The notes: generated by a model from the sequence alone, not told the origin. A stretch of 64,000 bases of DNA from an uncultured Hormoscilla sp. (GCA_963921275.4 OZ001293.3:4576001-4640000); one strand, 5' to 3'. Shown: positions 17,633-39,923, counted from the stretch's first letter. A program made the numbers and translations.

Positions 17633-19642
17633 TTAACCTGGGCAAACACACTCGGCCAGTCTCCCAGTTTTGTTTGACGATCGGGGCCGCATCGTGGGAT
17701 ACCAAGGGCTATCCGATCGATCGAGGAACCAGCGCCAGTCAGGAGAAAAAGGTAACAGCACCCAGACAGGTTTTCCTAAAGCACCTGCTAGATGGGCAAC
17801 TGATGTATCTACAAAAATTACTAAGTCTAATTGTGAGATAACAGCAGCAGAAGAGGCGAAGTCATTCAACAGCTCTCTTAAATCCTGTATAGGTGCCCCA
17901 TCCAGGATATCTGTATGTTCCTTTTGCAAACTATAAAGAAAAATCCCTAATATCTGCGACAGTTCCAGAAACAGGGAAACCGGACAAGACCGCTTGCTAG
18001 CTGTAGGACTTTTAGCATTAACAGCCCACACAATGCCGACTTTTACTTCTCCTTCCGTTCGTAGCAAGCCACTGTACTTGACGGTGTCCTTCTCTTCAGC
18101 GTACAAATAGGGTATTCGAGCCGGAATAGTTTCTATAGTCGTACCCAGGATGCGGGGGAGACTCATCAGGGGGACTTGCACGTCAAATGCTGGTAATGGT
18201 TCGCCCATGACTACCACCTCCTGAACGCCAGAGACCGTAGTAAACAAGCGCCTGAGATCTGGATATGTTTCCACAATTACTTTACCAGCACCCAGCTGGG
18301 TTACTAAGGGCGCGTAACGGATGAATTGGATAGCGTCCCCGTGTCCCTGTTCTGTATGTAAAAGAATAGTTTTTCCTGCCAGTGGCGAACCGTCCCAAAG
18401 AGGTTTTCCCCCATCGCGCAGCGTGGCGCAGCCATAGCGTTGTTCCGGGGTCTGTCCCCGGAACAACCATGATGAATGGCGCCAGCGCCATTCATATTCT
18501 ACAAATCCTTGGCTCAAGTCCTGCAATAATAACAAGCACCTTCCCAGATTTAAGTGAGCCCTTACTGCATCTGGGTTTAAGGCAATAACATGACGGTAAT
18601 AGCCGATCGCCTCTTGTAATTTCAGTTTTTTTCGCAGGGCAAAACCCAGGTTGCTGTAGACTTCGGCAAGGTCTGGTTTCAGGGCGATCGCCTTTTGGTG
18701 GCATGCGATCGCCTCTGCAAACTTACGCTGCTCTTGCCAAGCGGTCCCCATCCTATTGTAAGCTTCTGGATAATCTGGTTTAATTGCCAGAGCCTGACGA
18801 TATTGTCCGATCGCCTCTGCTATTTTACCCTGCTTTTGCAGTATCACCCCCAGGTCGCAATTTGCGTCCAGATAGTTCGGCTTTAAGGCGATCGCCTGTT
18901 CATACTGCCTCGCCGCCTCTGCTAACTTTTCACATCTTTGATAGCATTTCCCCAACTGATTGTAAAATTTCGCTTCTGGTTTAATGGCAATGGCTTTTTC
19001 ATAATAGGCGATAGCCTCTTCTCTGCGGTCCTGCTCTTCCATAATTTTAGCCGCATTATAGTAAGCATCCGCACATTTGGGGTCAATGCCCCGAGCCCCC
19101 TTTTCGTAGCAGGCGATCTCTTGTTGGTAATGAGCGAGCGCCTCTTGATAACGCTTTCCTTGGCGACGCATCGCCGCCAATTTTTCAGGGGTCGCGCCAC
19201 TCGGGATCAGCGATCCCACTTGCTGGTCAGTCTCCTTCGCGTAGCGTGCGCGCAGCTCGATCGCCTCTAATCTTTTTCCCTGTTTTTCCAGGGCCAAAAC
19301 CAGGTTATCATAAGCATTAAGATAATCAGGCTTCACTGCGATCGCCTGTTTGTAGGCAGCGATCGCCTGTTCGATTTTTCCCTGTTCCCAGAAGCAAGCC
19401 CCCAGATTATTATAAGTCTCAGGCCAATCTGGCTTTATAGATATCACCTGTTGAAAATAGCCGATCGCCCGATCGTATTCCCTCGTCTGATAAGCAATAA
19501 TTCCTAGCATCTGCATAGCCTCTACCTTGTGAGGCTGCTGTTCTAGCATCGCCAAATAAACAGCCCTCGCTTCATTCAGACGTCCGGCTTGGTAGTGACT
19601 CAAAGCCTCTCTTAACCAATCGTTCCCTGCTTGCTGTACCAT
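17633..19642 (-). CDS. TPR-repeat protein with C-terminal GT9-like glycosyltransferase domain (extreme C-terminus frameshifted)
   Basis: Multiple TPRs, then YEWRW, WDGSPLAGKTILLHTEQGHGDAIQFIRY, DTSVAHLAGALGKP, DWRWFLDRSDSPWYPTMR. Confidence 0.88.
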   Translation of the reverse strand: MVQQAGNDWLREALSHYQAGRLNEARAVYLAMLEQQPHKVEAMQMLGIIAYQTREYDRAIGYFQQVISIKPDWPETYNNLGACFWEQGKIEQAIAAYKQAIAVKPDYLNAYDNLVLALEKQGKRLEAIELRARYAKETDQQVGSLIPSGATPEKLAAMRRQGKRYQEALAHYQQEIACYEKGARGIDPKCADAYYNAAKIMEEQDRREEAIAYYEKAIAIKPEAKFYNQLGKCYQRCEKLAEAARQYEQAIALKPNYLDANCDLGVILQKQGKIAEAIGQYRQALAIKPDYPEAYNRMGTAWQEQRKFAEAIACHQKAIALKPDLAEVYSNLGFALRKKLKLQEAIGYYRHVIALNPDAVRAHLNLGRCLLLLQDLSQGFVEYEWRWRHSSWLFRGQTPEQRYGCATLRDGGKPLWDGSPLAGKTILLHTEQGHGDAIQFIRYAPLVTQLGAGKVIVETYPDLRRLFTTVSGVQEVVVMGEPLPAFDVQVPLMSLPRILGTTIETIPARIPYLYAEEKDTVKYSGLLRTEGEVKVGIVWAVNAKSPTASKRSCPVSLFLELSQILGIFLYSLQKEHTDILDGAPIQDLRELLNDFASSAAVISQLDLVIFVDTSVAHLAGALGKPVWVLLPFSPDWRWFLDRSDSPWYPTMRPRSSNKTGRLAECVCPG

Positions 19643-19836
19643 TTCACCTCCTAATCATAACAGACAAACCAACGTTAATCATAGCTTCAATTTCCAACTG
19701 TTTAATTTCTGATTCCCGGGATATTTTATTTTAACAGACCCTCCGACGGAAATTACCTGAATTTTTGGTTATTGCTCTCACAACTCACCCACGGAGGCGC
19801 GATCCGGGAGGCGCGCTCTTCGCTGTTAATGCTGCC

Positions 19837-22098
19837 TTAACCTGAGCAAACACACTCGGCCAGTCTCCCAGTTTTGTTTGACGATCGGGGCCGCATCGTG
19901 GGATACCAAGGGCTATCCGATCGATCTAGGAACCAGCGCCAGTTAGGAGAAAAAGGTAACAGCACCCAGACAGGTTTTCCTAAAGCACCTGCTAGATGGG
20001 CAACTGATGTATCTACAGAAATTACTAAGTCTAATTGTGAGATAACAGCAGCCGAAGAGGCGAAGTCATGCAACAGCTCTCTTAAATCTTGTATAGGTGC
20101 CCCATCCAGGATATCTGTATGTTCCTTTTGCAAACTATAAAGAGAAACTCCTGGTATCTGCGACAGTTCCAGAAATAGGGACACTGGACAAGACCGCTTG
20201 CTAGCTGTAAGACTTTTAGCATTAGCAGCCCACACAATGCCGACCTTTACCCTGTATTCGGGATGCGCCGTTCGTAGTACTCCACTGTACTTGACGGCGC
20301 CTTCCGCGTGCTCTTGTCCTTCAGGACAAAGGCCAGCTCCAGGCACCGCAGCTTCCTTCTCTTCAGCGTACAAATAGGGTATTCGAGCCGGAATGGTTTC
20401 TATAGTCGTACCCAGGATGCGGGGGAGACTCATCAGGGAAACTTGCAGGTCAAAGGCTGGTAATGGTTCGCCCTTGACTACCACCTGCTGAAGGCCAGAG
20501 ACCGTAGTAAACAAGCGTCTGAGAGTCGGATAGGTTTCCAGAATCACTTTACCAGCACCCCGCTGGGCTACTAAGGGCGCGTAACGGACGAACTGGATAG
20601 CGTCCCCGTGTCCCTGTTCTGTATGTAGGAAAATAGTTTTTCTTGCCAGTGGCGAACCATCCCAAGGGGGTTTTCCCAAGCGTTCTTCCGGGGTCCGTGC
20701 CCGGAAAAACTCTACTTTTAGGCGCCGGTCCCATTCAATTTATACAAATCCTTGTCGAAAATTCTGCAATAATAATAAGCACATTCCCAGACCCATGTGG
20801 GCCATTGCTGCATCTGGCTTTAAAACAATAGCATGGCGGTAATAGCCGATCGCCTCTTGTAATTTCAGTTGTTCTCGCAGGGCAAAACCCAGGTTGCTGT
20901 AGACTTCGGCAAGGTCTGGTTTCAGGGCGATCGCCTTTTGGTAGCATGCGATCGCCTCTGCTAACTTACCCTGATTTTGCCAAGCGGTCCCCATCCTATT
21001 GTAAGCTTCTGGATAATCTGGTTTAATTGCCAGAGCCTGGCAATATTGTCTGATCGCTTCTGCTATTTTACGCTGCTTTTGCAGTATCACCCCCAGGTTG
21101 CAAATTGCTTCTAGATAGTTCGGCTTTAAGGCGATCGCCCGTTCATACTGTCTCGCCGCCTCTGCTAAGTTCCCACATCTTTGATAGTATGCACCCAACC
21201 TATTGTACAATTTCGCCTCTGGTTTAATGGCAATGGCTTTTTTACAATAGGCGATCGCCTCTTCTCTGCGGTCCTGCTCTTCCATAATTCTGGCCGCCTT
21301 ATAGTAAGCATCCGCATAGTTGGGGTCAATGCTGATAGCCTTTTCGTAGCAGGCGAGCGCTTGTTCCTTATGGCCCAAGGAGTGCAAAACTACGCCCAAA
21401 TTATTGTGCAGGCCCATATCCTGGGGATTGAGAGCGATCGCCTCCCGGTATACCGATACTGCTTCTGCTAGCTTCCCGGTATTTTGGAGACATACCCCCA
21501 ACAAATTCATGGTTTTGCTATTTCCCGGATGGGCCAATAGCGCTTGGCGACAGAGGGCGATCGCCTTGTCTTTTTCTCTCTTTTGATACCAACTCATCGC
21601 CTGTTGGTAATGAGCGCTCGCCTCTTGATAACGCTTTTCCTCCTTCAGCATCGCCGCCGATTTTTCATGGGCCGCTCCACTCCGAATCAGCGGTACCACT
21701 TGCTGGTGCGTCTCGCGCATATCTAATCTTTTTCCCTGTTTTTCCAGGGCCAAAACCAGGTTATCATAAGCATCAAGATAATCAGGATTCACTGCGATCG
21801 CCTGTTTGTAAGCAGCGATCGCCTGTTCGATTTTTCCCTGTTTTCAGAAGCAAGCCCCCAGATTATTATAAGTCTCATGCCAATTTGGCTTTATAGACAT
21901 CACCTGTTGGAAATAGTTGATTGCTCGATCGTATTCCCTCGTCCGATAAGCAATAATTCCCAGCATCTGCATAGCCTCTACCTGGTGAGGCTGCTGTTTG
22001 AGCATCGCCAAATAAACAGCCCTCGCTTCATTCAGACGTCCGGCTTTGTAGTGACCCAAAGCCTTTCTTAACCAATCATTATCCGCTTGCTGTACCAT
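19837..22098 (-). pseudogene. TPR-glycosyltransferase paralog broken into three ORFs
   Basis: TGG>TGA stop at 21844 and a frameshift near 20740; high DNA identity to 17633-19642. Confidence 0.88.
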
Positions 22099-22717
22099 TT
22101 CACCTCCTAATCATAACAGACAAACCAACGTTAATCATAGCTTCAATTTCCAACTGTTGAATTTCTGATTCCCGGGATATTTTATTTTAACAGACCCTCC
22201 GACGGAAATTACCTGAGTTTTTGGCGGTTCTCCCGATACCGCAAGTTATTGCTCTCACAACTCACCCAGGACATGCGATCCGGCCGCTCGACAGTGCTCT
22301 CGTCTTGCGGTGAGCGAAGTCAAACCGGCGGTGAGCAAAGTCGAACCGCAAGACGAGAGTCGGGCTAGTATTACACTAGCACATCAAAATCAATTCAGCA
22401 ACTTTAAAGTAAAGCATAATTTCTTTGCCAACACCATGGTAATAGTAGATGAATTACAACAGCACTCCGAGCAGATAATTATGTTAGCATATTAGATGGT
22501 AGTGTGTTGGCTAGCACCGGTAGTCTTAGATATTTACTTTGCCGCTGGGAGCTTGTAGCTTTGGTTCCGAAAAAACCAGTTACACCGGGAGAGTCGCGCG
22601 AAAAGCGCTTGCCGTTGGAAAACACCCCACCGCCCGAACTTTAAAAAACCCGGCTACACCTTTCCTACCCGCCTCCGCAGGCTAATACTCTCGTCACCGA
22701 CAATTTATGAAGTTGTT

Positions 22718-23036
22718 TTAGCCCAAACATGGCCTAGTTTAGCCCAAGCATGGCCCCGGTTAGCTCAGATATGGCTTAGCTTAGCCATCTTTGGACTAGT
22801 TTAGCTCAGACATGGCTTAATTTAGCCCAAAGTTGCCTAAAATAGCCCAAACATGGCCTAAAATAGCCCAAACATGGCCCTCCCATGGCCATTTTTAGCC
22901 CTCCCATGGCCTAGTTTAGCTCAGACATGGCCTAGTTTAGTCCAAAGTGGCCTATTTTAATCCCAAATGGTCTAGGTTAGCCCAAAAATGGCCATGGTTA
23001 ACCCCAAAATGGCCATTTTTAGCCCAAACATGGCCA
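22718..23036. repeat. Degenerate 21-bp tandem repeat array
   Basis: About 15 units with consensus TTAGCCCAAACATGGCCTAGT. Confidence 0.8.
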
Positions 23037-23467
23037 AAAAACAGCGCAGCCTGCTTTAGTCAAAAATGAGCCTAAGCTAGCAAGGTTAAGACAGAACCAG
23101 AGAAAGATATATTACCATGACCGGGTGCTACCTCAGAATACTCCAGCTAACAATTTCAGGAAACGGTAACACTATTAGTAGTAACGACCAACACTGGCTG
23201 TTCTTTGTCAGAAAGCAGTACAAATTTCGATAACCGACCTTTAGCAACGGGGGCCCAGAAAGGCAATAGCGGCGGGGCGGCAGGCATAAGCGGTGCCCTG
23301 TTTGTCTTTAAATGGACGGTCAGAATGACCAACTTTCCGGATAGCATAAAAAAGTAATTTTATGTATCAGAGACGAAAAAACATAAAGATCCGTAAAGTA
23401 TAAGTAGGTAATCCATATTTCTTAAGATTTTTTAAATAGGTCGCAACTTGAGTTATGATAGACCTAG

Positions 23468-23528
23468 GTGCGACTCGTTCCGGCGTAAGTTAGAAATATG
23501 ACGATAGTCGGGCTAGTATTACACCAGC
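23468..23528 (+). other. Group II intron 5'-end stub upstream of the DUF4347-LRR gene, preceded by a solo IS982 end
   Basis: GTGCGACTCGTTCCGGCGTAAGTTAGAAATATGACGATAGTCGGGCTAG resembles the intron 5' ends at 5401 and 37942; ATAGGTCGCAACTTGAGT lies at ~23436-23453. Confidence 0.6.
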
Positions 23529-23588
23529 ATTTCTACAGAAAAATACAAGAGAAACCAAAAAATAAAACATAATACCAATGCCAACACC

Positions 23589-26500
23589 ATGGTAGTAGTG
23601 GATGCCTCCCTAGAAAACTACCAGCAGCTTATAGACGGCATCCGGCCTGGGGCCAAATCTTTTTTCTTAGACCTTCGGTCCGATGGCATCGAACAGATCG
23701 GCGAACTTCTCCGACAGCATCAAGAAACAGAGGTTCTGCACCTACTCTCCCATGGCAGCCCTGGCTGTCTGTATCTGGGAAACTCCCAACTGAGTTTAGA
23801 TACTCTAGGAGATTACGCTTCTACCCTGCAGAAGTGGAAAGTAAAACAACTCCTACTCTACGGCTGTAACGTCGCCGCCGGAGATGCAGGAGAGGAGTTG
23901 ATGACTAAGCTACAGGCCCTGACCGGGGCATCCCTCGCCGCCTCTACTACCCGGACAGGGGCAGCAGCCCGGGGCGGAAATTGGAGGTTGGAGTGGCGAA
24001 CTCCGGGGATGAAAACTCCCTTAGCATTGTCCGCAGAAGCTCAGATGGCCTATGGGGGCATATTGATCTCCCAGCAGGAGTATCAGGCCTTAAGGGCTCT
24101 CTATCAAAGCACCAATGGGGCTTCTTGGAGTAACAATACAGGCTGGCAAGACTGGAATTTCAACAGCCCAACTCCCCCCAATGATTCTGTTGTTAATGGT
24201 TGGCATGGAGTGACGGTAGCTAGCTCCCGGGTGATTAACCTCGAGCTGAACTTCAACCAACTGACTGGCAGCATCCCGACGGAGTTAGGGAATCTTTCCA
24301 ATTTGGAGTCTCTCTTGCTGTCCTTCAACCAACTGACTGGCAGCATCCCGACGGAGTTAGGGAATCTTTCCAATTTGCAGTTTCTCCAGCTGTTTTCCAA
24401 CCAACTGACTGGCAGCATCCCGACGGAGTTAGGGAATCTTTCCAATTTGGAGAATCTCCGGCTGTACTCCAACCAACTGACTGGCAGCATCCCGACGGAG
24501 TTAGGGAATCTTTCCAATTTGCAGTTTCTCCAGCTGTTTTCCAACCAACTGACTGGCAGCATCCCGACGGAGTTAGGGAATCTTTCCAATTTGGTATCTC
24601 TCGTGCTGTTCTCCAACCAACTGACTGGCAGCATCCCGACGGAGTTAGGGAATCTTTCCAATTTGGTATCTCTCGTGCTGTTCTCCAACCAACTGACTGG
24701 CAGCATCCCGACGGAGTTAGGGAATCTTTCCAATTTTATTTGGCTCCGGCTGGACTCCAACGAACTGACTGGCAGCATCCCGACGGAGTTAGGGAATCTT
24801 TCCAATTTGCGATCTCTCCAGCTGTTCTTTAACCAACTGACTGGCAGCATTTCCCAAGAGGTTCTAGATTTGAGTGCTGAGAAGCGATTGGAAAACCCCC
24901 CTTATGTTTTAACCGAGATTCCCTACGTCCAACTCTTGCTAGGTAATAACCTCAACATAAACATTAGCGCAGATTTCCGCGACATCAATAACAACATTAG
25001 TAGCTACGGCGCTAATGGTTTGCCAAACGGTTTAACCATTAACTCCACTACTGGGGTGATCAGCGGCACTCCTACTACTGAGGGCAGTTTTACCGTGACG
25101 GTAACAGCAACGGATAGGGCGGGAGGCCGGGGAGAAGATGAATTTAATATTACGGTATCGATTCCTCTCAATGCAAGTGATTACGACGCCCTTCGGGCTC
25201 TCTATAACAGTACTTCTGGGAATAATTGGAGGAAGAGGACAGGCTGGGATGTCAGCAGCCCAACTCCTCCCTCTGCTAGTGTTGTTAATAGCTGGCATGG
25301 GGTGACGGTAGTGGGCGATCGGGTGACGAAACTCTCCCTGTTCAACAACTCCCTGAGCGGTACGCTCCCCTCGGAGTTAGGCTCCCTCAGCAATTTGCAA
25401 GTCCTCTCCCTGAACTTCAGCTCCCTGAGCGGTACGCTCCCCTCGGAGTTAGGCTCCCTCAGCAATTTGCAAGAGCTCTGGCTGGACAGAAACTCCCTGA
25501 GCGGTACGCTCCCCTCTGAGTTAGGCTCCCTCAGCAATTTGCGAAAGCTCTACCTGCACAGAAACTCCCTGAGCGGTACGCTCCCCTCTGAGTTAGGCTC
25601 CCTCAGCAATTTGCAAGAGCTCTCCCTGCACAGAAACTCCCTGAGCGGTACGCTCCCCTCAACCTTAGGCTCCCTCAGCAATTTGCAAGAGCTCTCCCTG
25701 CACAGAAACTCCCTGAGCGGTACGCTCCCCTCAACCTTAGGCTCCCTCAGCAATTTGCAAAACCTCTACCTGGACAGAAACTCCCTGAGCGGTACGCTCC
25801 CCTCTGAGTTAGGCTCCCTCAGCAATTTGCAAGACCTCTACCTGTTCAACAACTCCCTGAGCGGTACGCTCCCCTCGGAGTTAGGCTCTTTCAGCAATTT
25901 GCAAGAGCTCTACCTGAACAACAACGACTTTCGCGGTACGATCCCCGACAGTATCAACGCTTTGTCAGCATCCAAACGATTGGAAAACCCTCCCTATGTG
26001 GAAATTCAAATTCCCGACGTCAATGCCTTAAGTGGTGAGAAATTCAACTTCAAGGTGGGCGGGAACTTCGGCGACCTCAACAACAACATTAGTAGCTACG
26101 GCGCTAATGGTTTGCCAGACGGTTTAACCATTAACTCCACTACTGGGGTGATCAGCGGCATTCCTACTATTCCTACTATTGATGGCAGTTTTACCGTGAC
26201 GGTAACAGCAACGGATGGGGTGGGATACCGGGGAGAGGATGAATTTAATATTACAGTATCGCGTCCCACTAGCTTCAACCTTTCTGATAGTTTCGCTCTC
26301 AATGGCAACTTTACCAATTTGTACATCGGTGACTTTAATGGGGACAATCATGATGATATCCTCCGTCAAGAAAAGGGCAGTTGGTCCAACGAGGATGCCT
26401 ATCGGACTGCTGAAGTCCTCTTATCCCAAGGTAACGGCAACTTTACCCGCACCACCCTTCCTGATAGTAGATCTCTCAATGGCAACTTTATCAATTTGTA

Positions 26501-27707
26501 CATCGGTGACTTTAATGGGGACAATCATGATGATATCCTCCGTCAAGAAAAGGGCAGTTGGTCCAAGGACGATGCCGTAAGGACTGCTGACGTCCTCTTA
26601 TCCCAAGGTAACGGCAACTTTACCCGCACCACCCTTCCTGATAGTTTCGCTCTCAATGGCAACTTTACCAATTTGTATGTCGGTGACTTTAATGGAGACG
26701 AAAAAAGCGATATCCTCCGTCAAGAAAAGGGCAGTTGGTCCAAGGACGATGCCGTAAGGACTGCTGACGTCCTCTTATCCCAAGGTAACGGCAACTTTAC
26801 CCGCACCACCCTTCCTGATAGTTTCGCTCTCAATGGCAACTTTACCAATTTGTATGTCGGTGACTTTAATGGAGACGGGAAAAGCGATATCCTCCGTCAA
26901 GAAAAGGGCGATTGGGATAACGATGCCATTCGGACTGCTGAAGTCCTCTTATCCCAAGGTAACGGCAACTTTACCCGCACCACCCTTCCTGATAGTTTCG
27001 AGCTCAAGGGCGACTTGACCAAGTTGTATATAGAAGATTTGGATGGTGATGACCGAGATGAGATTCTGGTTCAAAAAAAATTGACCCAAGAGGGTCTGTC
27101 CCGCCTCCTGAAGGTATTGTCCTCAAATGATGGGCGCAATTTTACCGAATCTCTGCTCCCTTCTGCGCTTCAGTTTTCCAGTCAAAGCGGGCAACTGTAT
27201 ATTGCCGATTACTCCGGCAGTGGGCAAAACAATGATGTTCTGGTTCAGCGTTCTGGAAATAACCAAGCGCTGCTAGGCAGCATTACCCTGGGGAGCAATG
27301 ACTACCTTCAAGGGGGAACAGGAAACGATTCCCTCAATGGGGGTAACGGAAACGACTGGATTCGCGGATACGGGGGCGACGATACCCTTTTAGGGGGCAG
27401 CGATAACGATACTCTCTATGGCGACGAGGGAGAGGATATTCTCAATGAGGGTAAGGGGCACGACATGCTTTACGGCAATTCCGGTAGTGATACTTTTGTC
27501 TTGGCCCGGGGCATGGGCGGGGATACCATCCAGGACTTTTCAGATGGTACGGACTTTATCCGGTTAGAAGGAGGTTTGAGTTTTGCTGATTTAGGAATTG
27601 ATTCTCAGAACGATTCGACTTCTATTAAGGTCAGTGCTTCTGGGGAACTGTTGGGGATTTTGTCGGGGGTTGATTCTAGTCTTATTGGTGCTTCTGATTT
27701 TGTTTAG
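23589..27707 (+). CDS. Large secreted/surface protein: DUF4347 - LRR - Ig(He_PIG) - LRR - Ig - FG-GAP/VCBS repeats - RTX Ca-binding C-terminus
   Basis: LHLLSHGSPG/LLLYGCNVAAG (DUF4347); 24-aa LxxLxLxxNxLTGSIPxELGxL repeats; GLPNGLTINSTTGVISGTPT; GDFNGD repeats; GGxGND nonapeptides. Confidence 0.92.
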   Translation: MVVVDASLENYQQLIDGIRPGAKSFFLDLRSDGIEQIGELLRQHQETEVLHLLSHGSPGCLYLGNSQLSLDTLGDYASTLQKWKVKQLLLYGCNVAAGDAGEELMTKLQALTGASLAASTTRTGAAARGGNWRLEWRTPGMKTPLALSAEAQMAYGGILISQQEYQALRALYQSTNGASWSNNTGWQDWNFNSPTPPNDSVVNGWHGVTVASSRVINLELNFNQLTGSIPTELGNLSNLESLLLSFNQLTGSIPTELGNLSNLQFLQLFSNQLTGSIPTELGNLSNLENLRLYSNQLTGSIPTELGNLSNLQFLQLFSNQLTGSIPTELGNLSNLVSLVLFSNQLTGSIPTELGNLSNLVSLVLFSNQLTGSIPTELGNLSNFIWLRLDSNELTGSIPTELGNLSNLRSLQLFFNQLTGSISQEVLDLSAEKRLENPPYVLTEIPYVQLLLGNNLNINISADFRDINNNISSYGANGLPNGLTINSTTGVISGTPTTEGSFTVTVTATDRAGGRGEDEFNITVSIPLNASDYDALRALYNSTSGNNWRKRTGWDVSSPTPPSASVVNSWHGVTVVGDRVTKLSLFNNSLSGTLPSELGSLSNLQVLSLNFSSLSGTLPSELGSLSNLQELWLDRNSLSGTLPSELGSLSNLRKLYLHRNSLSGTLPSELGSLSNLQELSLHRNSLSGTLPSTLGSLSNLQELSLHRNSLSGTLPSTLGSLSNLQNLYLDRNSLSGTLPSELGSLSNLQDLYLFNNSLSGTLPSELGSFSNLQELYLNNNDFRGTIPDSINALSASKRLENPPYVEIQIPDVNALSGEKFNFKVGGNFGDLNNNISSYGANGLPDGLTINSTTGVISGIPTIPTIDGSFTVTVTATDGVGYRGEDEFNITVSRPTSFNLSDSFALNGNFTNLYIGDFNGDNHDDILRQEKGSWSNEDAYRTAEVLLSQGNGNFTRTTLPDSRSLNGNFINLYIGDFNGDNHDDILRQEKGSWSKDDAVRTADVLLSQGNGNFTRTTLPDSFALNGNFTNLYVGDFNGDEKSDILRQEKGSWSKDDAVRTADVLLSQGNGNFTRTTLPDSFALNGNFTNLYVGDFNGDGKSDILRQEKGDWDNDAIRTAEVLLSQGNGNFTRTTLPDSFELKGDLTKLYIEDLDGDDRDEILVQKKLTQEGLSRLLKVLSSNDGRNFTESLLPSALQFSSQSGQLYIADYSGSGQNNDVLVQRSGNNQALLGSITLGSNDYLQGGTGNDSLNGGNGNDWIRGYGGDDTLLGGSDNDTLYGDEGEDILNEGKGHDMLYGNSGSDTFVLARGMGGDTIQDFSDGTDFIRLEGGLSFADLGIDSQNDSTSIKVSASGELLGILSGVDSSLIGASDFV
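24230..24852 (+). repeat. 72-bp LRR tandem repeat block 1 (9 units)
   Basis: Near-invariant AACCAACTGACTGGCAGCATCCCGACGGAGTTAGGGAATCTTTCCAATTTG plus a 21-nt variable segment. Confidence 0.95.
25322..25950 (+). repeat. 72-bp LRR tandem repeat block 2 (9 units)
   Basis: Framework AACTCCCTGAGCGGTACGCTCCCCTC-GAGTTAGGCTCCCTCAGCAATTTG. Confidence 0.95.
26280..27005 (+). repeat. Four 177-bp (59-aa) FG-GAP-like repeats
   Basis: Repeated DSFALNGNFTNLY.GDFNGD...DILRQEKG.W...RTA.VLLSQGNGNFTRTTLP. Confidence 0.9.
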
Positions 27708-27883
27708 TTACGGTAAGGCTGTTGTTTTCCCTGGGGGGCCTTTGACTGCTATTGGGGTGTGGTCTTGCGCCCGTTGGTAGGAGACAGTAGCCGGGCCAGT
27801 GAAGGGCCGGGTCTGTCCTATGGTAAAGCAGGAAATGTTACCAATGTCGCCGGTAACCAACACTTGAGTTATAATAAACAAAC

Positions 27884-27944
27884 GTGCCACTCGTTCCGGC
27901 GTAAGTCAGAAATATGACGATAGTCGGGCTAGTATTACACCAGC
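27884..27944 (+). other. Second copy of the group II intron 5'-end stub, upstream of the paralog
   Basis: GTGCCACTCGTTCCGGCGTAAGTCAGAAATATGACGATAGTCGGGCTAG. Confidence 0.55.
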
Positions 27945-27977
27945 ACCTCTACAGAAAAATACAAGAGAAACCAAAAA

Positions 27978-30900
27978 ATGAAGCATAATACCAATGCCAA
28001 CACCATGGTAGTAGTGGATGCTTCCCTAGAAAACTACCAGCAGCTTATAGACGGCATCCGGCCTGGGGCCAAATCTTTCCTCTTAGACCTTCGGTCCGAT
28101 GGCATCAAACAGATCGGCGAACTTCTCCGACAGCATAAAGAAACAGAGGTTCTGCACCTACTCTCCCATGGCAGCCCTGGCTGTCTGTATCTGGGAAACT
28201 CCCAACTGAGTTTGGATGGGGTCGAGCCGGGAATCGCTTCCCGACCCTCCCTTTCGGAACCGGACTTGCGATTTTCACCGCATCCGGCTACTGGGTACTA
28301 GGCCCTTTTCATAGGTAGACTTAATAGGAATTACTTCCGTTAGCCCTTGCCGCCTGTCTTTTCTTCCCTTTCCTGGTTTAGCGAGTGGTTGTTCTGATAA
28401 CCGTTAGTATCACCATTTTCAAGTCAGTTTTACCAGTTATCCATACCTTATCCTCCACTTGCGTTTCGGATTAGTTCCGTGGCTTTTTAGGATTACTCAT
28501 TCCAGCAGCTTCCTAGTATCACCGACCCACGTCAGCGCTGGCTACCCAGCATCATCTACATTACTGTAGATGTTATCCCAGGAATTACCCCGGGCATTCG
28601 CTTCTTGGGCCATCCCTCCCCCCGTGGCTTGCGCTTAACATCTAACTTGTCCTGATGGACAGCACACGAGAGGTTACTTCGTTCCCTAACAACATTTCGC
28701 GATACCTTTAGGTCCACACTATACCCCGGGAGCTATTTGAGTACTATATTAGCCAGAGTCTAAAACTAATACTAGCTACCATTTCCTTTTTAGGCCAGCG
28801 CATATAGCCTTATTTCGCTGGTTCCTTATAACGAGGCTTGCACATGTTTGCCTGCTCTAACCTTGGATATCTTTCCTAGCGGCGTCACCGGCTTAGGCTG
28901 CCAGTTATCCTACATTTGAGTCCTCGCTTAGCACCACGATGATGTCGCTTCGTAGCACCGAGGACCGGTGTCACCCCCGTACCTGGGGGGAGGGGAATTT
29001 AACCCCCATGCGGTCAGAGTTCCCGGCTAATGAAACCGGGCTAGCGTTCCGTGTTTGACCACGTTAGGCTAGAACGAATCGCACAGATCCTCTAGGAGAT
29101 TACGCCTCTACCCTACAGAAGTGGAAGGTAAAACAACTCCTACTCTACGGCTGTAACGTCGCCGCCGGAGATGCAGGAGAGGAGTTGATGACTAAGCTAC
29201 AGGCCCTAACCGGGGCATCCCTCGCCGCCTCTACTACCCGGACAGGGGCAGCAGCCCGGGGCGGAAATTGGAAGTTGGAGTGGCGAACTCCGGGGATGAA
29301 AACTCCCTTAGCATTGTCCGCAGAAGCTCAGATGGCCTATGGGGGCATATTGATCTCCCAGCAGGAGTATCAGGCCTTAAGGGCTCTATACCAAAGCACC
29401 AATGGGGCTTCTTGGAGTAACAATACAGGCTGGCGAGACTGGAATTTCAACAGCCCAACTCCCCCCAATGATTCTGTTGTTAATGGTTGGTATGGAGTGA
29501 CGGTAGCTAACTCCCAGGTGACTCGCCTCCGGCTGTTCTCCAACCAACTGACTGGCAGCATCCCGACGGAGTTAGGGAATCTTTCCAAATTGGCGGCGCT
29601 CTTGCTGAACTCCAACCAACTGACTGGCAGCATCCCGACGGAGTTAGGGAATCTTTCCAATTTGCAGTTCCTCGAGCTGGACAGAAACCAACTGACTGGC
29701 AGCATCCCGACGGAGTTAGGGAATCTTTCTACTTTGCGACGTCTCTGGCTGGACTCCAACCAACTGACTGGCAGCATCCCGACGGAGTTAGGGAATCTTT
29801 CCAATTTGACAACTCTCCTTCTGAACTCCAACCAACTGACTGGCAGCATCCCGACGGAGTTAGGGAATCTTTCTAAATTGGCGGCGCTCTTGCTGAACTC
29901 CAACCAACTGACTGGCAGCATCCCGACGGAGTTAGGGAATTTTTCCAATTTGCAGTTCCTCGAGCTGGACAGAAACCAACTGACTGGCAGCATCCCGACG
30001 GAGTTAGGGAATCTTTCCAATTTGGTGCAGCTCTTTCTGTACTCCAACCAACTGACTGGCAGCATCCCGACGGAGTTAGGGAATCTTTCCAATTTGGTGC
30101 TGCTCTGGCTGTACTCCAACCAACTGACTGGCAGCATCCCGACGGAGTTAGGGAATCTTTCCAATTTGCAGTTTCTCTACCTGTCCGGCAACCAACTGAC
30201 TGGCAGCATCCCGACTGAATTAGGGAATCTTTCCAATTTGAAGAATCTCCGGCTGGGCTCCAACCAACTGACTGGCAGCATCCCGACGGAGTTAGGGAAT
30301 CTTTCTAATTTGCGACTTCTCTTGCTGTACTCCAACCAACTGACTGGCAGCATCCCGACGGAGTTAGAGAATCTTTCCTATTTGTGGGCGCTCTACCTGA
30401 ACAACAACCTCCTGACTGGCAGCATCCCCCAAGAGGTTCTAGATTTGAGGGGCTTAGTCTTAAAGCGATTGGAAAACCCCCCTTATGTTTTAACCGAGAT
30501 TTCGACGTCCAACTCTTGCTAGGTAATAATCTCAACATAGACATTAGCGCAAATTTCGGCGACATCAATAACAACATCAACAACTACACAGCTACCGGTT
30601 TACCAGGGGGCGTAACCATCAACAGTCGGGGAGTTATCAGCGGTACTCCTACTACCGCAGACACCTTTACCGTGACGGTAACAGCAACGGATAGGGCGGG
30701 ATACCGGGGAGAGGATGAATTTAATATTACGGTATTGACTCGTAATCCTCTCAATGCTAATGATTATGCAGCCCTTCTGACTCTCTATAACAGTACTTCT
30801 GGGGAGAATTGGGCGAACAGGACAGGCTGGGATGTCAGCAGCCGGACTCCCCTCTCTGCCGATGTTGTTAATGGCTGGCATGGGGTGACGGTAGTGGGAA

Positions 30901-31994
30901 ATCGGGTGACAGGACTCAACCTGGACAGAAACTCCCTGAGCGGTACGATCCCGTTCGAGTTAGGTTCCCTCAGCAATTTGCGATACCTCTGGCTGGGCTC
31001 CAACTCCCTGAGCGGTACGATCCCCTCTGAGTTAGGCTCCCTCAGCAATTTGCAACGTCTCTCCCTGCACCACAACAACTCCCTGAGCGGTACGATCCCC
31101 TCGGAGTTAGGCTCCCTCAGCAATTTGCAAGAACTCTCCGTGAACAACAACCGACTGAGCGGTACGCTCCCTTCAGGGTTAGGCTCCCTCAGCAATTTGC
31201 AAAGCCTTATTCTGTCCTCCAACAACCTGAGCGGTACGATCCCCTCGGAGTTAGGCTCCCTCAGCAATTTGTCAGGCCTCTTCCTGCACAACAACTCCCT
31301 GATCGGTACGATCCCCTCGGAGTTAGGCTCCCTCAGCAATTTGCAACACCTCTACCTGTACAACAACGACTTTCGCGGTACGATCCCCGACAGTATCAAC
31401 GCTTTGTCAGCAGACAAACAATTGGAAAACCCTCCCTATGTGGAAACTCAAATTCCCGACGTCAATGCCTTCAGGAGTGAGAACTTCAACTTCAATGTCA
31501 GCCGGAACTTCGGCGACCTCAACAACAACATTAATAGCTACGGCGCTAATGGTTTGCCAAACGGTTTAACCATTAACTCCACTACTGGGGTGATCAGCGG
31601 CACTCCTACTACTGATGGCAGTTTTACCGTGACGGTAACAGCAACGGATAGGGCGGGAGGCCGGGGAGAGGATGAATTTAATATTACAGTATCGCGTCCC
31701 ACTAGCTTCACCCTTTCTGATAGTTTCGCTCTCAATGGCAACTTTACCAATTTGTACATCGGTGACTTTAATGGGGACAATTATGATGATATCCTCCGTC
31801 AAGAAAAGGGCAGTTGGTCCAACGACGATGCCTATCGGACTGCTGAAGTCCTCTTATCCCAAGGTAACGGCAACTTTACCCGCACCACCCTTCCTGATAG
31901 TTTCGCTCTCAATGGCAACTTTACCAATTTGTATGTCGGTGACTTTAATGGGGACAATCATGAATTATTTCACCCCAGTCTGAACCCACCATGA
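27978..31994 (+). pseudogene. Second DUF4347-LRR-Ig paralog, inactivated
   Basis: Interrupted by an antisense intron (28214-29084); 1-nt frameshift near 30503; truncated in the second FG-GAP repeat; 13 + 7 LRR units. Confidence 0.9.
28214..29084 (-). mobile_element. ORF-less group II intron C, antisense to its host gene
   Basis: 5' GTGCGATTCGTT at 29084; domain V AGCCGGATGCGGTGAAAATCGCAAGTCCGGTT; boundaries fixed by the intact paralog (CTGAGTTT|AGAT); 871 bp. Confidence 0.93.
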
Positions 31995-32208
31995 TCTTAG
32001 GGATAAACCAACCCAAGCTCAAACCATTGTTAAGATATTTTGGCATTTTATTTAGGCTATCGCTCCCAAATGCGATCATAATTCGATGAAAAAATATGGA
32101 CAATCGTTCCTGTTACTCTTGGCTTAAAGTTGACTGGTTATTATAGCAAATGGACTTGATTTTATCCGGGCGATCGCCCGGGGGGTGGGCCCCAGCCCAC
32201 CAGAGAAA

Positions 32209-37941: not shown

Positions 37942-38056
37942 GTGCGATTCGTTCTGACGTAAGCTAGAAATAGCGAAAGTCGGGCCTGGTTTCATTTGCC
38001 AGGTAACTTTGGCATCATGGGGGTTAAATTACCCTCGCCCAGGTATGGGGTTGACA
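37942..38056 (+). mobile_element. Truncated group II intron (5' ~115 nt only) fused to an hsdM fragment
   Basis: GTGCGATTCGTTCTGACGTAAGCTAGAAATAGCGAAAGTCGGG...CATGGGGGTTAAATTACCC aligns with the A1/A2 5' end. Confidence 0.85.
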
Positions 38057-39466
38057 ACGGTACATGGTTTGGATGGACTGATTCAGATCGGAAATACTTT
38101 TTACGATCGCCGGGAAGACTTAATCGGTGGGTGCGATTATGTGATGTCGAACCCTCCGTTTAATGTGGATGCGGTGATTCCCGATCGCATCAAGGATGAC
38201 CCGCGCCTATTTACCCAGAAAAAGATCCCCGGCATTGCCCAAAAAACCGGGGCGGTTAGCAATGCCAACTATCTCTGGATTCAATATTATTACAGCTATC
38301 TGAACGAAAAAGGACGGGCGGGCTTTGTGATGGCCAGTTCCGCTTCTGATGCGGGACATGGTGAAAAGGCAATTCGCCAGGAGATTATTGCTACGGGGGC
38401 GGTGGATGCGATCGTCTCCATTGGCACGAACTTTTTCTATACCCGATCGCTACCTTGTACTCTGTGGTTTTTTGATAAGGGAAAGCCCCAAGACCGCCTG
38501 GATAAAGTGTTGATGATTGATGGGCGGAATATTTACCGGGTCATCAGTCGCAAGCTGCGGGATTTTAGCCCGGAACAGTTGCAAAACCTGACGGCGATCG
38601 CCTGGCTGTATCGGGGGGAAACTGAGAAATATTTAGGCTTGGTGGGATCCTATTTGGAGAAGCTACAGGCTAGCATTGCCCCATTGCCAGCAGCAGTGCA
38701 AGCCATGCAGGAGTCGGTAATGTGGTTGGGGGAAGGGTTGCAGGAGTTCGCGGAGGAGATGGCCCAGCGTCAGAGTCGGGTACAAATTAGTTTATTTGAG
38801 GATGTCCCGGAGGTGGAGATTGACGCCCAGTTGCAAGGGTTGCACTCATTGCTGCAAGAGTTCGCCACGGTGCAAAGTCGATGTCAGACGGACGGGGAAA
38901 CTCTGATGGCTGAGTTGGCAAGGATCTCCATGCCAAGGAAGAAGACTAACGGGGCAATGATTGCCAATGTCCGCAAGTTTGAGCCGTTGATTTCCCGGTT
39001 GAAGGCGTACCGTAAGGAAATCGATGAACTGCACAAGTTACTCACTCGCGGTTTGGAAGTGGTCACCAAGAAGTTAAAGGCAAGTAAGCTGAAAAATTGG
39101 TACAGTCGAGAAATGGGCGATCGGGCCAAACGGCTAGATGGGGAACATGAGGAGGTACGGCATGGGATGAAAACAATCCGCTACTGGTACGACCAGGCCC
39201 ACTGGTTACAGTCGCGGTTCCCAGAGGCGATGTTTGTGGATGTACCGGGATTGTGTAAGGTGGTAACTCGGGGGGAGATTGCCGAACAGGACAGCAGTTT
39301 AACTCCAGGGCGTTATGTGGGGGTTGCACCGGTGATGGATGAGGAGGATGAAGAGGCGTTTGAGGCCCGGATGAAAGCCATTCATCAGGAGTTGGCAGAG
39401 TTGAATGAGGCGGCGGTGGAGTTGGCAGGGGCAATTCAAAGTAATTTTGAGGAGTTAGTGGGATGA
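38057..39466 (+). pseudogene. hsdM: Type I R-M methyltransferase subunit, 5'-truncated
   Basis: VHGLDG..NTFY..MSNPPFN, ANYLWIQ, SLTPGRYVG; the N-terminal half with the SAM-binding DPxxGxG motif is absent. Confidence 0.88.
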
Positions 39467-39633
39467 TATACCCTCGTTCCCAGAGGGTGCATCTACCCTC
39501 GTTCCCAGACTCCGGCTGGGAACGAATTACGCGGAGGCAGAGCCTCCGGTTTCTGCAACAGGAGGCAGAGCTGAGAGCAGTCATTGGCAGGTAGAACCTG
39601 CCAACGAGGTAAAATTTTACATAGTTTAGTTGA

Positions 39634-39809: not shown

Positions 39810-39923
39810 GTTGAATTATGCACACCTACTTATGGATGAAAGCTATTCATCAGAAGTTGGTAAAGTTGGATGAGGCGGCGGTGGAATTTGCAAGGACGAA
39901 TATAAGTAATTTCGCGGAGTGCT

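What the first reader, a model, noticed from the sequence alone, without database searches (positions are those of the whole stretch)
24230..31390. LRR arrays with a frozen DNA framework and hypervariable binding-face codons, next to a pseudogene paralog
Seen: across 9+13 block-1 repeats the 51-nt framework is almost invariant, even at synonymous sites. The x codons of LxxLxLxxN vary strongly (GAG TCT/CAG TTT/GTA TCT/GCG GCG/AAG AAT; CAG/CGG/GTG/TGG/TTG; TAC/GAC/AAC/TTC/GGC), mostly at codon positions 1-2. Some units recur exactly or nearly (gene 1 units 3=5 and 6=7; gene 2 units 2-3 ~ 6-7), and unit number differs between paralogs (9/9 versus 13/7). Established: these x positions form the concave ligand-binding face, and the 24-aa consensus is the plant receptor-type LRR. 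Inference: a variable surface-receptor system diversified by repeat shuffling or gene conversion (loosely VLR-like), with the pseudogene as a possible donor.
Basis: partly seen in the sequence, partly recalled or inferred. Interest (0 to 1): 0.8.

Follow-up and report, generated by a model that had tools for sequence, protein, structure and literature searches.

The report
Fast-evolving LRR surface-protein family in a cyanobacterium
Two neighbouring genes (one intact, one broken) belong to a family of about 28 secreted leucine-rich-repeat proteins in one cyanobacterial genome, whose repeats are almost identical as DNA except at five binding-face codons that look driven apart by natural selection, much as in plant and fungal immune receptors.

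Summary
The 51-nt framework of the window's arrays occurs 171 times (3 mismatches or fewer; 95 exact) in the 7.03-Mb genome. About 290 LRR units lie in 28 loci of one family: DUF4347 head, plant-type LRR, Ig-like, cadherin or FG-GAP, RTX tail. Codons 1, 2, 4, 6 and 7 of each 24-codon unit are hypervariable; the rest is nearly frozen, including the Leu codons that were not used to find the units.

Parsimony on unit networks shows equal synonymous change per codon at x and framework codons, but about 10-fold more replacements at x codons (crude omega 2.4-4.3). A recently duplicated array pair differs at 10 of 576 nt, none in x codons, and framework adenines are not hypervariable. So this is diversifying selection on a young, recombining, lineage-specific expansion, not programmed hypermutation.

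Genes are mosaics, and arrays grow by multi-unit tandem duplication. Gene 2 is broken by an antisense ORF-less group II intron that sits at the same DUF4347 site in 6 family members (140 copies genome-wide), by a frameshift and by truncation. It shares no cassette with gene 1, so its donor role is unsupported. Strain-level variation could not be tested.

The parts
23589..27707 (+). Gene 1, intact 1372-aa family member: DUF4347, cap, LRR-A, He_PIG, cap, LRR-B, He_PIG, FG-GAP repeats, RTX tail
   Evidence: ORF; Pfam (DUF4347 7.3e-51, LRR families, He_PIG 3.4e-31, FG-GAP_3 1.3e-18, HemolysinCabind 1.9e-13)
23589..24065 (+). DUF4347 head domain with invariant His55-Gly56 and Gly92-Cys93
   Evidence: AF2 pLDDT 93. 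Weak fold likeness to a T6SS effector chain (9qpe_G) and to legumain, caspases and CHAT
24066..24233 (+). N-terminal cap of the A array (cysteine-free, LRRNT-like)
24234..24881 (+). LRR-A array of gene 1: 9 units of 72 nt, 6 with the exact 51-nt framework
24882..25163 (+). Linker and first He_PIG Ig-like domain; closest copy lies in another locus (locus 7, 96%), not in gene 2 (86%)
25326..25973 (+). LRR-B array of gene 1: 9 units. Units 1-8 are a collinear copy of units 6-9 and 13-16 of locus 13 (G000:C1:4933833-4937471, minus strand)
   Evidence: 10 differences in 576 nt, none in x codons
26271..27200 (+). FG-GAP/VCBS-type repeats (177-nt tandem period)
27201..27704 (+). RTX nonapeptide repeats and C-terminal end (type I secretion type)
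   Evidence: A HlyD-type fusion protein gene is present elsewhere in the genome
27978..31994 (+). Gene 2, broken paralog: intron insertion, 1-nt frameshift, 3' truncation, no RTX tail
28214..29084 (-). ORF-less group II intron (about 871 nt), antisense to gene 2, inserted precisely at DUF4347 nt 210-213 without target duplication
   Evidence: Rfam RF00029 at 28216-28292 minus strand, 46.4 bits. Junctions compared with the uninterrupted gene 1 site. 140 copies at 98% identity or more. Same site and same antisense orientation in 6 family loci
29521..30456 (+). LRR-A array of gene 2: 13 units, 11 framework mismatches in the 12 regular units
30499..30504 (+). Frameshift of gene 2: one base missing relative to all paralogs listed
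   Evidence: Not verifiable from reads
30909..31416 (+). LRR-B array of gene 2: 7 units, one carrying an extra codon
17633..22098 (-). Divergently oriented TPR-protein genes, co-duplicated with the LRR genes
   Evidence: Pfam and NCBIfam. Copies lie upstream of LRR loci 1, 4, 7, 9, 11 and 14 in this genome and beside LRR genes in two congeners
22717..23588 (.). Upstream intergenic region with 20-21-nt tandem repeats. Its proximal part (23001-23588) is shared with other family loci

Best explanation
Gene 1 is an intact member, and gene 2 a decayed member, of a recently and lineage-specifically expanded multigene family. The family has about 28 loci and about 290 LRR units. Its members are extracellular multi-domain proteins: a DUF4347 head, one or two plant-type 24-residue LRR solenoids each followed by an Ig-like He_PIG domain, cadherin or FG-GAP repeats, and an RTX tail of the kind exported by type I secretion.

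Shown here:
- Arrays grow and shrink by tandem duplication of one to three 72-nt units.
- Family members exchange segments, so each gene is a mosaic.
- The repeat framework is young and homogeneous. Its synonymous divergence is no greater than that of the adjoining head domain, or than that between sister species.
- Amino-acid replacements at five positions per unit (x1, x2, x4, x6, x7 of xxLxLxx), on and beside the concave beta-strand, have accumulated several-fold faster than synonymous change.

Inferred: the cause is positive diversifying selection on a ligand-binding surface acting on ordinary point mutations, with unequal crossing-over and gene conversion keeping the frameworks alike. The proteins then form a germline-encoded repertoire of binding specificities (adhesion or recognition of variable partners). 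There is no programmed hypermutation or cassette assembly.
For: Scale. The framework occurs 171 times at 3 mismatches or fewer (0 for the reversed control) in the own genome. blastn finds 238 A-type and 58 B-type units in 28 loci. A framework-blind protein regex finds 290 units.

Frozen synonymous sites, free of ascertainment. Unit codon 3 is CTC in 225 of 227 Leu codons and unit codon 5 is CTG in 224 of 229. Tyr, Asn, Asp and His at x6 are C-ending 60 to 0 in the 95 exact-framework units.

Diversity. The 95 exact frameworks in 18 loci carry 77 different cassettes.

Selection, from minimum-spanning-tree parsimony on 262 unique units:
- x codons show 513 replacement and 28 synonymous changes; framework codons show 202 and 131.
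- Synonymous change per codon is 5.6 at x codons against 6.9 in the framework.
- Fisher odds ratio 11.9, p = 6e-37; crude omega 4.3.
- A neutral simulation conditioned on the same hits per codon expects 63.8 +/- 6.9 synonymous changes; 28 were observed, giving omega about 2.4.
- The same holds in congener G004 (356/20; 20 observed against 36.9 expected).

No hypermutation. Gene 1's B array and locus 13 differ at 10 of 576 nt, none in x codons. Framework adenines are no more variable than other bases: 0.0125 against 0.0189 (C), 0.0190 (G) and 0.0024 (T).

Young family. pS is 0.10 for DUF4347, 0.14 for cap A, 0.13 for the A framework and 0.04 for Leu3/Leu5. dapB pS against the congeners is 0.12-0.18. 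The exact framework was not found in 60 relatives (1 hit, with 3 mismatches) nor in genome contigs or metagenome contigs. Congeners have the family, but with thawed frameworks: 150 distinct in 197 units in G004 and 57 in 66 in G002.

Recombination and duplication:
- The best match of each gene 1 segment lies in a different locus.
- All 8 units of locus 11 share a private synonymous variant while carrying 6 different cassettes.
- Multi-unit tandem duplicates occur in loci 7, 10 and 11.

Fold and class. AF2 gives pLDDT 85, with strands at unit residues 2-6. The best PDB relatives are plant LRR-RLK ectodomains.

Secretion type. RTX repeats are present and a HlyD-type gene is present in the genome.
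Against: - The omega estimates come from parsimony on short, recombining repeats. No codon-model test allowing for recombination was run.
- In the smaller, more divergent G002 sample the conservative test shows no excess (18 synonymous changes observed, 17.3 expected).
- Nei-Gojobori within x codons alone gives only pN/pS 1.5, near saturation.
- He_PIG1 is much more diverged (pS 0.36) than the frameworks. Recency alone therefore does not explain the homogeneity, and the share of gene conversion versus fresh duplication is not resolved.
- Only gene 1 of the 34 ORFs scanned with Pfam has both a complete head and an RTX tail in one ORF, and at least 12 of 28 loci look broken. Much of the family may therefore be decaying rather than functioning.
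- No expression, secretion or ligand data exist here, and no second strain was available, so the function is inferred from domain content only.
- No type I secretion genes lie next to the locus.
Confidence: 0.65

Rival explanations
1. Programmed variation by cassette recombination, in the manner of lamprey VLR, Borrelia vls or Neisseria pilS. The many silent or broken copies, including gene 2, would donate LRR cassettes to a few expressed genes, using the identical 51-nt frameworks as recombination anchors. The population would then carry changing receptor or antigen variants.
For: At least 12 of 28 loci are broken yet keep well-formed arrays. Genes are mosaics of segments whose closest copies lie in different loci. 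The 51-nt identical frameworks are long enough for homologous recombination (inference). Patchy transfer of a 4-nt framework variant between neighbouring units is visible.
Against: Gene 1 is a complete ORF, not an incomplete germline gene. Gene 1 and gene 2 share no cassette. Only 12 of 38 recurrent A cassettes occur in more than one locus, and 188 of 238 A cassettes are distinct sequences. Loci are dispersed over 6.6 Mb rather than arranged as a donor array beside an expression site. No dedicated recombinase or deaminase lies in the neighbourhood.
Confidence: 0.08
2. No positive selection. The five positions are merely unconstrained, and the pattern reflects relaxed constraint on solvent-exposed residues in a very young, partly pseudogenised family.
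For: Many copies are broken. Gene 2's framework has already picked up 11 mismatches in 12 units, several of them replacements. G002 shows no excess under the conservative test. Within-x-codon pN/pS is only 1.5.
Against: Relaxed constraint gives omega of about 1. G000 gives 2.4-4.3 and G004 gives 1.9-3.6, with none of 300 neutral simulations producing as few synonymous changes as observed in G000 (63.8 +/- 6.9 expected, 28 observed). Third bases of x6 and x7 stay ancestral (86 and 88 of 95) while first and second bases approach saturation.
Confidence: 0.12
3. Targeted mutagenesis of the x codons, by a diversity-generating retroelement or another templated mutator.
For: Variation is concentrated at codon positions 1-2 with a fixed third base (NNC at x6 and x7, NNG at x4, NNT at x2). 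This superficially resembles DGR output from AAY template codons. The genome is rich in retroelements (140 + 102 group II intron copies).
Against: The 14 framework adenines are not hypervariable. All four bases occur at the variable positions. About 290 target units in 28 loci is unlike any single VR/TR pair. Synonymous change per codon is the same at x and framework codons. A recent duplicate pair has no x differences. DGR targets known to me are C-type-lectin or Ig-like folds, not LRR (recalled, not tested).
Confidence: 0.02
4. Assembly or polishing artefact: repeats homogenised by consensus polishing, so that the frozen framework is exaggerated.
For: Short-read contigs of public runs are fragmented across the arrays and cannot confirm them. 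Several arrays contain single-base frameshifts that could be long-read errors.
Against: Private framework variants are kept array by array, for example in locus 11 (all 8 units) and locus 12. The cassettes are in frame and diverse. Congener assemblies show the same A and B frameworks with more variation.
Confidence: 0.03

Closest known systems
Highly internally conserved (HIC) WD40/ANK/TPR repeats of fungal NLRs (Podospora nwd/het-d/het-e family)
   Same: Repeats are nearly identical within and between paralogs. Variation is confined to a few positions on the binding surface under positive selection. Repeat number changes, and repeats are exchanged between family members. This is described in passages I read in PMC4986451.
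   Different: Here the repeat is an LRR (that paper found no LRR in fungal NLRs). The proteins are extracellular RTX-type proteins with no NOD/NACHT or death-effector domain, and the host is a bacterium. Mean unit identity is 76-82%, below the paper's 85% criterion. Allelic repeat-number polymorphism was not testable.
Plant LRR receptor kinases, receptor-like proteins and R-gene LRRs
   Same: Same 24-residue LRR class; the closest solved sequences are GSO1, FLS2, MIK2, HAESA, PEPR1 and BRI1. Hypervariable solvent-exposed xxLxLxx residues with a replacement excess are the classical plant R-gene pattern (recalled, not read here).
   Different: There is no transmembrane helix or kinase. The N-terminal cap is cysteine-free, and Pfam reported no LRRNT_2. 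The arrays are embedded between DUF4347, Ig-like, FG-GAP or cadherin and RTX modules. DNA-level framework identity is far higher than is usual in plant genes.
Lamprey VLR and bacterial silent-cassette systems (vls, pilS)
   Same: Both have LRR modules (VLR) or silent copies beside an expressed gene. Identical framework DNA could guide recombination.
   Different: There is no incomplete expression-site gene, no cassette sharing between gene 1 and the neighbouring pseudogene, and no donor array. Evidence of somatic or clonal change is lacking; reads gave no verdict.
RTX adhesins exported by type I secretion
   Same: Both have a C-terminal RTX nonapeptide block, a large modular extracellular architecture with Ig-like, cadherin or FG-GAP extenders, and no neighbouring signal-peptide-type export genes.
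   Different: The ligand-binding module is a plant-type LRR solenoid, and the head is DUF4347. DUF4347 heads many cyanobacterial RTX, cadherin and FG-GAP proteins, but only 6 of the 120 listed homologs carry 4 or more LRR units, and 4 of those 6 are from this genome.
TAL effector repeats
   Same: Both have near-identical repeat DNA with variation confined to fixed codons that set binding specificity, and both evolve by repeat recombination (recalled).
   Different: The fold differs, the ligand is unknown here, five variable positions per unit replace two, and the proteins are secreted rather than injected.

Membership tests
Leucine-rich repeat, plant-specific class | 24-residue period | tested here: met
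   72-nt period in all four arrays; units read in register
Leucine-rich repeat, plant-specific class | Conserved segment LxxLxLxxNxL with a short beta-strand at positions 3-5 (definition read in PMC5976695) | tested here: met
   Per-codon table: L3, L5, N8 and L10 are near invariant. AF2 strands fall at unit residues 2-6
Leucine-rich repeat, plant-specific class | Variable segment of the type (T/S)GxIPxxLGxLxxL (consensus recalled, from no call) | tested here: met
   A consensus is NQLTGSIPTELGNLSNL and B consensus is NSLSGTLPSELGSLSNL. Best PDB sequence matches are plant LRR-RLK ectodomains
Leucine-rich repeat, plant-specific class | Cysteine-paired LRRNT_2 cap as in plant ectodomains | tested here: not met
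   Pfam lists no LRRNT_2 at E of 0.01 or below. The cap sequence has no cysteine
HIC repeats of fungal NLR type | Over 85% identity between repeats across at least 100 residues (criterion read in PMC4986451) | tested here: not met
   Mean pairwise unit identity is 76% (gene 1 A), 82% (gene 1 B), 80% (gene 2 A) and 69% (gene 2 B). With 5 of 24 positions variable, about 79% is expected when all x residues differ
HIC repeats of fungal NLR type | Positive selection at a few surface positions of each repeat | tested here: met
   (omega 2.4-4.3 in G000); position on the strand
HIC repeats of fungal NLR type | Concerted evolution and exchange within and between paralogs, with repeat-number change | tested here: met
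   Mosaic segments, an array-wide private variant, collinear arrays with a 4-unit indel, and 3 to 24 units per locus. Allelic polymorphism was not testable
HIC repeats of fungal NLR type | NLR architecture (NOD/NACHT/NB-ARC plus an N-terminal effector) | tested here: not met
   No such domain in gene 1 or in the 33 other family ORFs
VLR-like or silent-cassette programmed variation | Incomplete or expression-site gene completed from neighbouring donor cassettes | tested here: not met
   Gene 1 is a complete 1372-aa ORF. It shares no cassette with gene 2
VLR-like or silent-cassette programmed variation | Variation of cassette order within a clonal population | tested here: inconclusive
   Only fragmentary short-read contigs of 5 runs from 2 studies were available
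Diversity-generating retroelement target | Adenine-specific differences between variable and template repeats | tested here: not met
   Framework adenines are invariant like the other bases. All four bases occur at variable positions
Diversity-generating retroelement target | Adjacent DGR reverse transcriptase and template repeat | not tested
   No search for a DGR-type RT was run. None of the 15 neighbouring ORFs scanned is an RT
RTX protein exported by type I secretion | C-terminal calcium-binding nonapeptide repeats | tested here: met
   HemolysinCabind 1.9e-13, residues about 1235-1267 and neighbours; NCBIfam RTX_toxin region 1213-1349, below cut-off
RTX protein exported by type I secretion | Cognate ABC transporter, membrane-fusion protein and outer-membrane factor | tested here: inconclusive
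   One HlyD-type gene is over the cut-off at G000:C1:777916-779301. None lies near the locus. ABC and TolC partners were not searched
Group II intron (the insertion in gene 2) | Domain V/VI RNA structure, 5' GUGYG, precise insertion without target duplication | tested here: met
   RF00029 46.4 bits against gathering score 40; GTGCG 5' end and exact junctions against the gene 1 site
Group II intron (the insertion in gene 2) | Intron-encoded reverse transcriptase/maturase | tested here: not met
   The element is about 871 nt. The 80-aa ORF list has no ORF inside the element apart from the 107-aa gene 2 5' piece that runs into it. It would have to be mobilised in trans (inference)

The most novel reading that the evidence does not exclude
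A filamentous cyanobacterium keeps a germline repertoire of dozens of secreted LRR 'receptors' that evolve as plant and fungal immune receptors do: frozen scaffold, selected hypervariable binding face, inter-locus repeat exchange. Intron-silenced and frameshifted copies would serve as a recombination reservoir. The repertoire would be used for non-self recognition of phages, grazers or foreign filaments. That would make it a bacterial, extracellular counterpart of eukaryotic innate-immune LRR repertoires.
Probability: 0.15. Interest if true: 0.85.

Novelty: new variant of a known kind. Interest (0 to 1): 0.6.

Why it matters
Repeat receptors with a frozen scaffold and a selected hypervariable face are a hallmark of eukaryotic recognition systems: plant R genes and receptor-like proteins, fungal NLRs, lamprey VLRs. 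Here the same evolutionary regime operates in a bacterium, on plant-type LRRs carried by secreted RTX-type proteins, and with about 290 units in one genome. That suggests multicellular cyanobacteria also face an arms race at their surface.

The family is a tractable system. There are many paralogs of graded age. Sister species carry 'thawed' versions. Silenced copies are naturally marked by an intron. Together these allow study of how unequal crossing-over, gene conversion and selection build binding repertoires.

The x residues also mark where to look for ligands. My full-text searches found the fungal and plant analogues but no description of such a family in cyanobacteria. These searches cover open-access papers only.

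Tried and rejected
1. The fuzzy-regex genome scan timed out. It was replaced by blastn-short.

2. Strain or population variation. The look-up of sequencing runs gave 5 runs from 2 studies holding 30-58% of the sampled words. Laying 4 of the 5 runs gave only short Logan contigs that break inside the arrays, so there is no verdict on unit order, number or heterogeneity. An apparent 'inserted C' at the gene 2 frameshift turned out to be the sequence of paralogs, so the frameshift is neither confirmed nor refuted.

3. Exact-framework scans of metagenome contigs and genome contigs found nothing. No second population of this lineage could be compared.

4. Orthologous comparison through synteny. All four congeners align with the window only from about 32129 on the dapB side. 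The LRR pair has no positional ortholog there.

5. The notes of this scan held nothing for this genome.

6. Nei-Gojobori within x codons alone (pN/pS 1.5) is close to saturation. It was not used as the main test.

7. My recollection that the eLife 2020 paper on conflict systems (PMC7159879) describes near-identical repeats with variable positions was not borne out by the passages found. It is not cited as an analogue.

8. DGR-type mutagenesis was rejected. A VLR-like donor role of gene 2 was rejected for lack of shared cassettes.

9. Complex prediction, the viral collections and the plasmid, phage and E. coli collections were not used, because nothing pointed to them.


Full report
WHAT IS IN THE WINDOW

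Gene 1 (23589-27707, + strand, 1372 aa) is one open frame. Pfam finds:
- an N-terminal DUF4347 (E 7.3e-51);
- LRR families;
- two He_PIG Ig-like domains;
- FG-GAP repeats;
- C-terminal RTX nonapeptide repeats.

Tandem Repeats Finder reports four arrays of period 72 nt. Read in register, gene 1 has 9 A-type units from 24234 and 9 B-type units from 25326 (the last unit of each array is a divergent cap). Gene 2 has 13 A-type units from 29521 and 7 B-type units from 30909. The A framework is identical over 51 nt in 6 of the 8 regular units of gene 1 and 5 of the 12 of gene 2, with 13 mismatches in 1020 nt overall.

Gene 2 is broken in three ways at assembly level.
- An 871-nt element sits at 28214-29084. 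It carries Rfam group II intron domains V-VI on the minus strand (46.4 bits) and a GTGCG 5' end. It splits the DUF4347 domain exactly where gene 1 is continuous, with no target duplication. It is antisense to the gene, so it cannot be spliced from the gene's mRNA (inference).
- One base is missing near 30500 relative to every paralog listed.
- Homology to gene 1 stops inside the FG-GAP repeats near 31960, and there is no RTX tail.

THE PATTERN IS GENOME-WIDE

The 51-nt A framework occurs 171 times at 3 mismatches or fewer in the 7.03-Mb genome (95 exact); the reversed control gave 0. blastn-short finds 238 A-type and 58 B-type units in 28 loci. A protein regex that ignores the DNA framework finds 290 units.

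Pfam on 33 ORFs of the other 26 loci shows one family: DUF4347, LRR, He_PIG, optionally a second LRR and He_PIG, then cadherin or FG-GAP repeats and RTX.

Per-codon variability shows codons 1, 2, 4, 6 and 7 as hypervariable and the rest as near invariant. Ascertainment does not explain this. The two Leu codons inside the variable 21 nt were never part of a query, yet they are CTC in 225 of 227 and CTG in 224 of 229 A units, against genomic shares of 11% and 30%.

The 95 units with an exact framework lie in 18 loci and carry 77 different cassettes. Their third bases stay fixed (x6 NNC in 86 of 95, x7 NNC in 88, x4 NNG in 80, x2 NNT in 70), and Tyr, Asn, Asp and His at x6 are C-ending 60 to 0.

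SELECTION OR MUTATION?

I counted codon changes along minimum spanning trees of the units, a parsimony proxy. For the 262 unique regex-defined units of this genome:
- x codons show 513 replacement and 28 synonymous changes; the 19 framework codons show 202 and 131;
- synonymous change per codon is the same (5.6 against 6.9);
- replacement change per codon is about ten-fold higher at x codons;
- Fisher odds ratio 11.9, p = 6e-37; site-normalised omega about 4.3 at x and 0.54 in the framework.

The blast-defined set gives the same picture (432/30 against 207/96). A stricter null, which mutates each changed codon at random at the same number of positions, expects 63.8 +/- 6.9 synonymous outcomes against 28 observed. 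That implies omega about 2.4.

Congener G004 behaves alike (20 observed, 36.9 expected). The small, more diverged G002 sample does not (18 against 17.3). Nei-Gojobori within x codons gives pN 0.61 and pS 0.41, close to saturation.

Three results argue against a mutator aimed at the x codons:
- synonymous rates are equal;
- the 14 framework adenines are as invariant as other bases, which excludes DGR-type adenine mutagenesis;
- the one recent duplicate available, gene 1's B array against units 6-9 and 13-16 of locus 13, differs at 10 of 576 nt, none of them in an x codon.

WHY THE FRAMEWORK LOOKS FROZEN

The family is young. Synonymous divergence among paralogs is 0.10 for the DUF4347 head, 0.14 for cap A, 0.13 for the A framework overall and 0.04 at Leu3/Leu5. 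dapB differs from the four congeners by pS 0.12-0.18.

All four congeners have large LRR families (130, 74, 40 and 23 matches) with recognisably the same A and B frameworks. Those frameworks are far less uniform: 150 distinct in 197 sampled units in G004 and 57 in 66 in G002, against 113 in 290 here, where one framework is present 94 times.

The exact framework was not found in 60 relatives (one hit, with 3 mismatches), nor in genome contigs or metagenome contigs. So this lineage had a recent burst.

Recency is not the whole story. The He_PIG domain next to the A arrays is much more diverged (pS 0.36). Each segment of gene 1 also has its closest copy in a different locus:
- head: locus 6, 98.5%;
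- He_PIG1: locus 7, 96%;
- cap B and He_PIG2: locus 13, 97.5% and 99.7%;
- gene 2 scores only 86%, 86% and 91% for these last three segments.

In locus 11 all 8 units share a private synonymous framework change while carrying 6 different cassettes. Loci 7, 10 and 11 contain exact two- or three-unit tandem duplications. A 4-nt framework patch sits in two adjacent units in gene 1 but in one unit in locus 13. Unit duplication, unequal exchange and inter-locus recombination are thus all visible. Their relative shares are not resolved.

STRUCTURE AND LIKELY FUNCTION

AlphaFold2 on gene 1 residues 160-440 gives an LRR solenoid (pLDDT 85). Its strands have a 24-residue period covering unit residues 2-6, so x2, x4 and x6 lie on the strand and x1 and x7 flank it. 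That this sheet is the concave ligand face is established LRR knowledge; passages of PMC5976695 were read.

The nearest solved sequences are plant LRR receptor-kinase ectodomains: GSO1 at 6e-201, then FLS2, MIK2, HAESA, PEPR1 and BRI1. The cap lacks the plant cysteine pairs, and Pfam reports no LRRNT_2.

The RTX tail, and a HlyD-type gene elsewhere in the genome, suggest type I secretion. No export genes are adjacent.

DUF4347 heads hundreds of cyanobacterial RTX, cadherin and FG-GAP proteins (509 hits). Only 6 of the 120 listed homologs carry 4 or more LRR units, and 4 of those 6 are from this genome.

The best reading of function is a repertoire of extracellular binding proteins whose specificity is set by the x residues. 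The ligand is unknown. Expression was not examined.

STATE OF THE FAMILY

Only gene 1 combines a full head and an RTX tail in one ORF among the 34 family ORFs scanned. Arrays are split over more than one ORF in 8 loci. The group II intron interrupts DUF4347 at the same nucleotide, always antisense, in 6 loci: 1, 3, 6, 10 (= gene 2), 11 and 23. The union is 12 of 28 visibly broken loci. Some frameshifts may be sequencing errors.

The intron has 140 copies at 98% identity or more and 850 nt or more, plus about 102 copies of a family about 73% identical.

VERDICT ON THE INTERPRETATION

The VLR-like programmed element and the donor role of the pseudogene are not supported:
- gene 1 is complete;
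- it shares no cassette with gene 2;
- 188 of 238 A cassettes are distinct sequences;
- recent duplicates keep their cassettes.

Within-population variation could not be assessed.

COMPARISON WITH KNOWN SYSTEMS

The closest known evolutionary regime is the highly internally conserved WD/ANK/TPR repeats of fungal NLRs, with concerted evolution, repeat-number change and positive selection at four surface positions (passages of PMC4986451 read). Differences here are the repeat type, the extracellular RTX architecture without any NOD domain, the bacterial host, and unit identity of 76-82%, below that paper's 85% criterion.

Plant R-gene and receptor-like-protein LRRs share the repeat class and the hypervariable xxLxLxx pattern (recalled). 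My searches did not turn up a description of such a family in cyanobacteria; they cover open-access full text only.

I rate it a new variant of a known kind, of moderate to high interest.

Noticed in passing
window 28214-29084 (minus strand); genome-wide in G000:C1: An ORF-less group II intron of about 871 nt is present in 140 near-identical copies (98% or more), plus about 102 copies of a family about 73% identical. It has inserted at the very same DUF4347 nucleotide, always antisense to the gene, in 6 LRR family members. The 5' exon consensus is roughly AACCTTAATGAGTCT. This suggests sequence-directed homing into the non-coding strand of a gene family, or spread of the disrupted allele by gene conversion.
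   Followed up: partly
window 23589-24065 (DUF4347 of gene 1): In 29 aligned homologs, His55-Gly56 and Gly92-Cys93 are invariant and follow consecutive beta-strands in a confident AF2 model (pLDDT 93). Foldseek's best hit is a chain of the Pseudomonas Hcp3-Tce1 T6SS complex (9qpe_G, TM 0.56). Legumain, caspases and a SAVED-CHAT protease follow at low TM (0.3-0.46). DUF4347 may be a caspase-like (clan CD) fold with a His/Cys dyad. A P. aeruginosa DUF4347 protein is a putative Hcp-delivered effector (PMC8262886, passage read).
   Followed up: partly
window 17633-22098 (minus strand): TPR-protein genes, one with a C-terminal part showing faint likeness to heptosyltransferases (24.6 bits, far below cut-off), lie divergently upstream of gene 1. 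Copies lie upstream of LRR loci 1, 4, 7, 9, 11 and 14 in this genome and next to LRR genes in congeners G002 and G004. TPR and LRR genes seem to duplicate as one module.
   Followed up: partly
window 22717-23036: A block of degenerate 20-21-nt tandem repeats (unit roughly TTTAGCCCAAACATGGCCTAG, 6-8 copies) lies in the intergenic region upstream of gene 1. The proximal 23001-23588 part is shared with other family loci.
   Followed up: no
window about 31960-32129: Homology of gene 2 to gene 1 ends near 31960, and alignment with all four congeners starts at about 32129 just beyond dapB. The truncated end of gene 2 coincides with a synteny breakpoint; the LRR pair is not next to dapB in the sister species.
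   Followed up: partly
window 38009-41153: A Type I restriction-modification methylase gene (N6_Mtase) and a specificity-subunit gene (Methylase_S, two target-recognition halves) lie downstream.
   Followed up: no
G000:C1:4391880-4392527 (locus 7) and other loci: Several arrays carry single-base frame breaks inside otherwise perfect units, for example unit 8 of locus 7. These are either very recent decay or long-read homopolymer errors.
   Followed up: no
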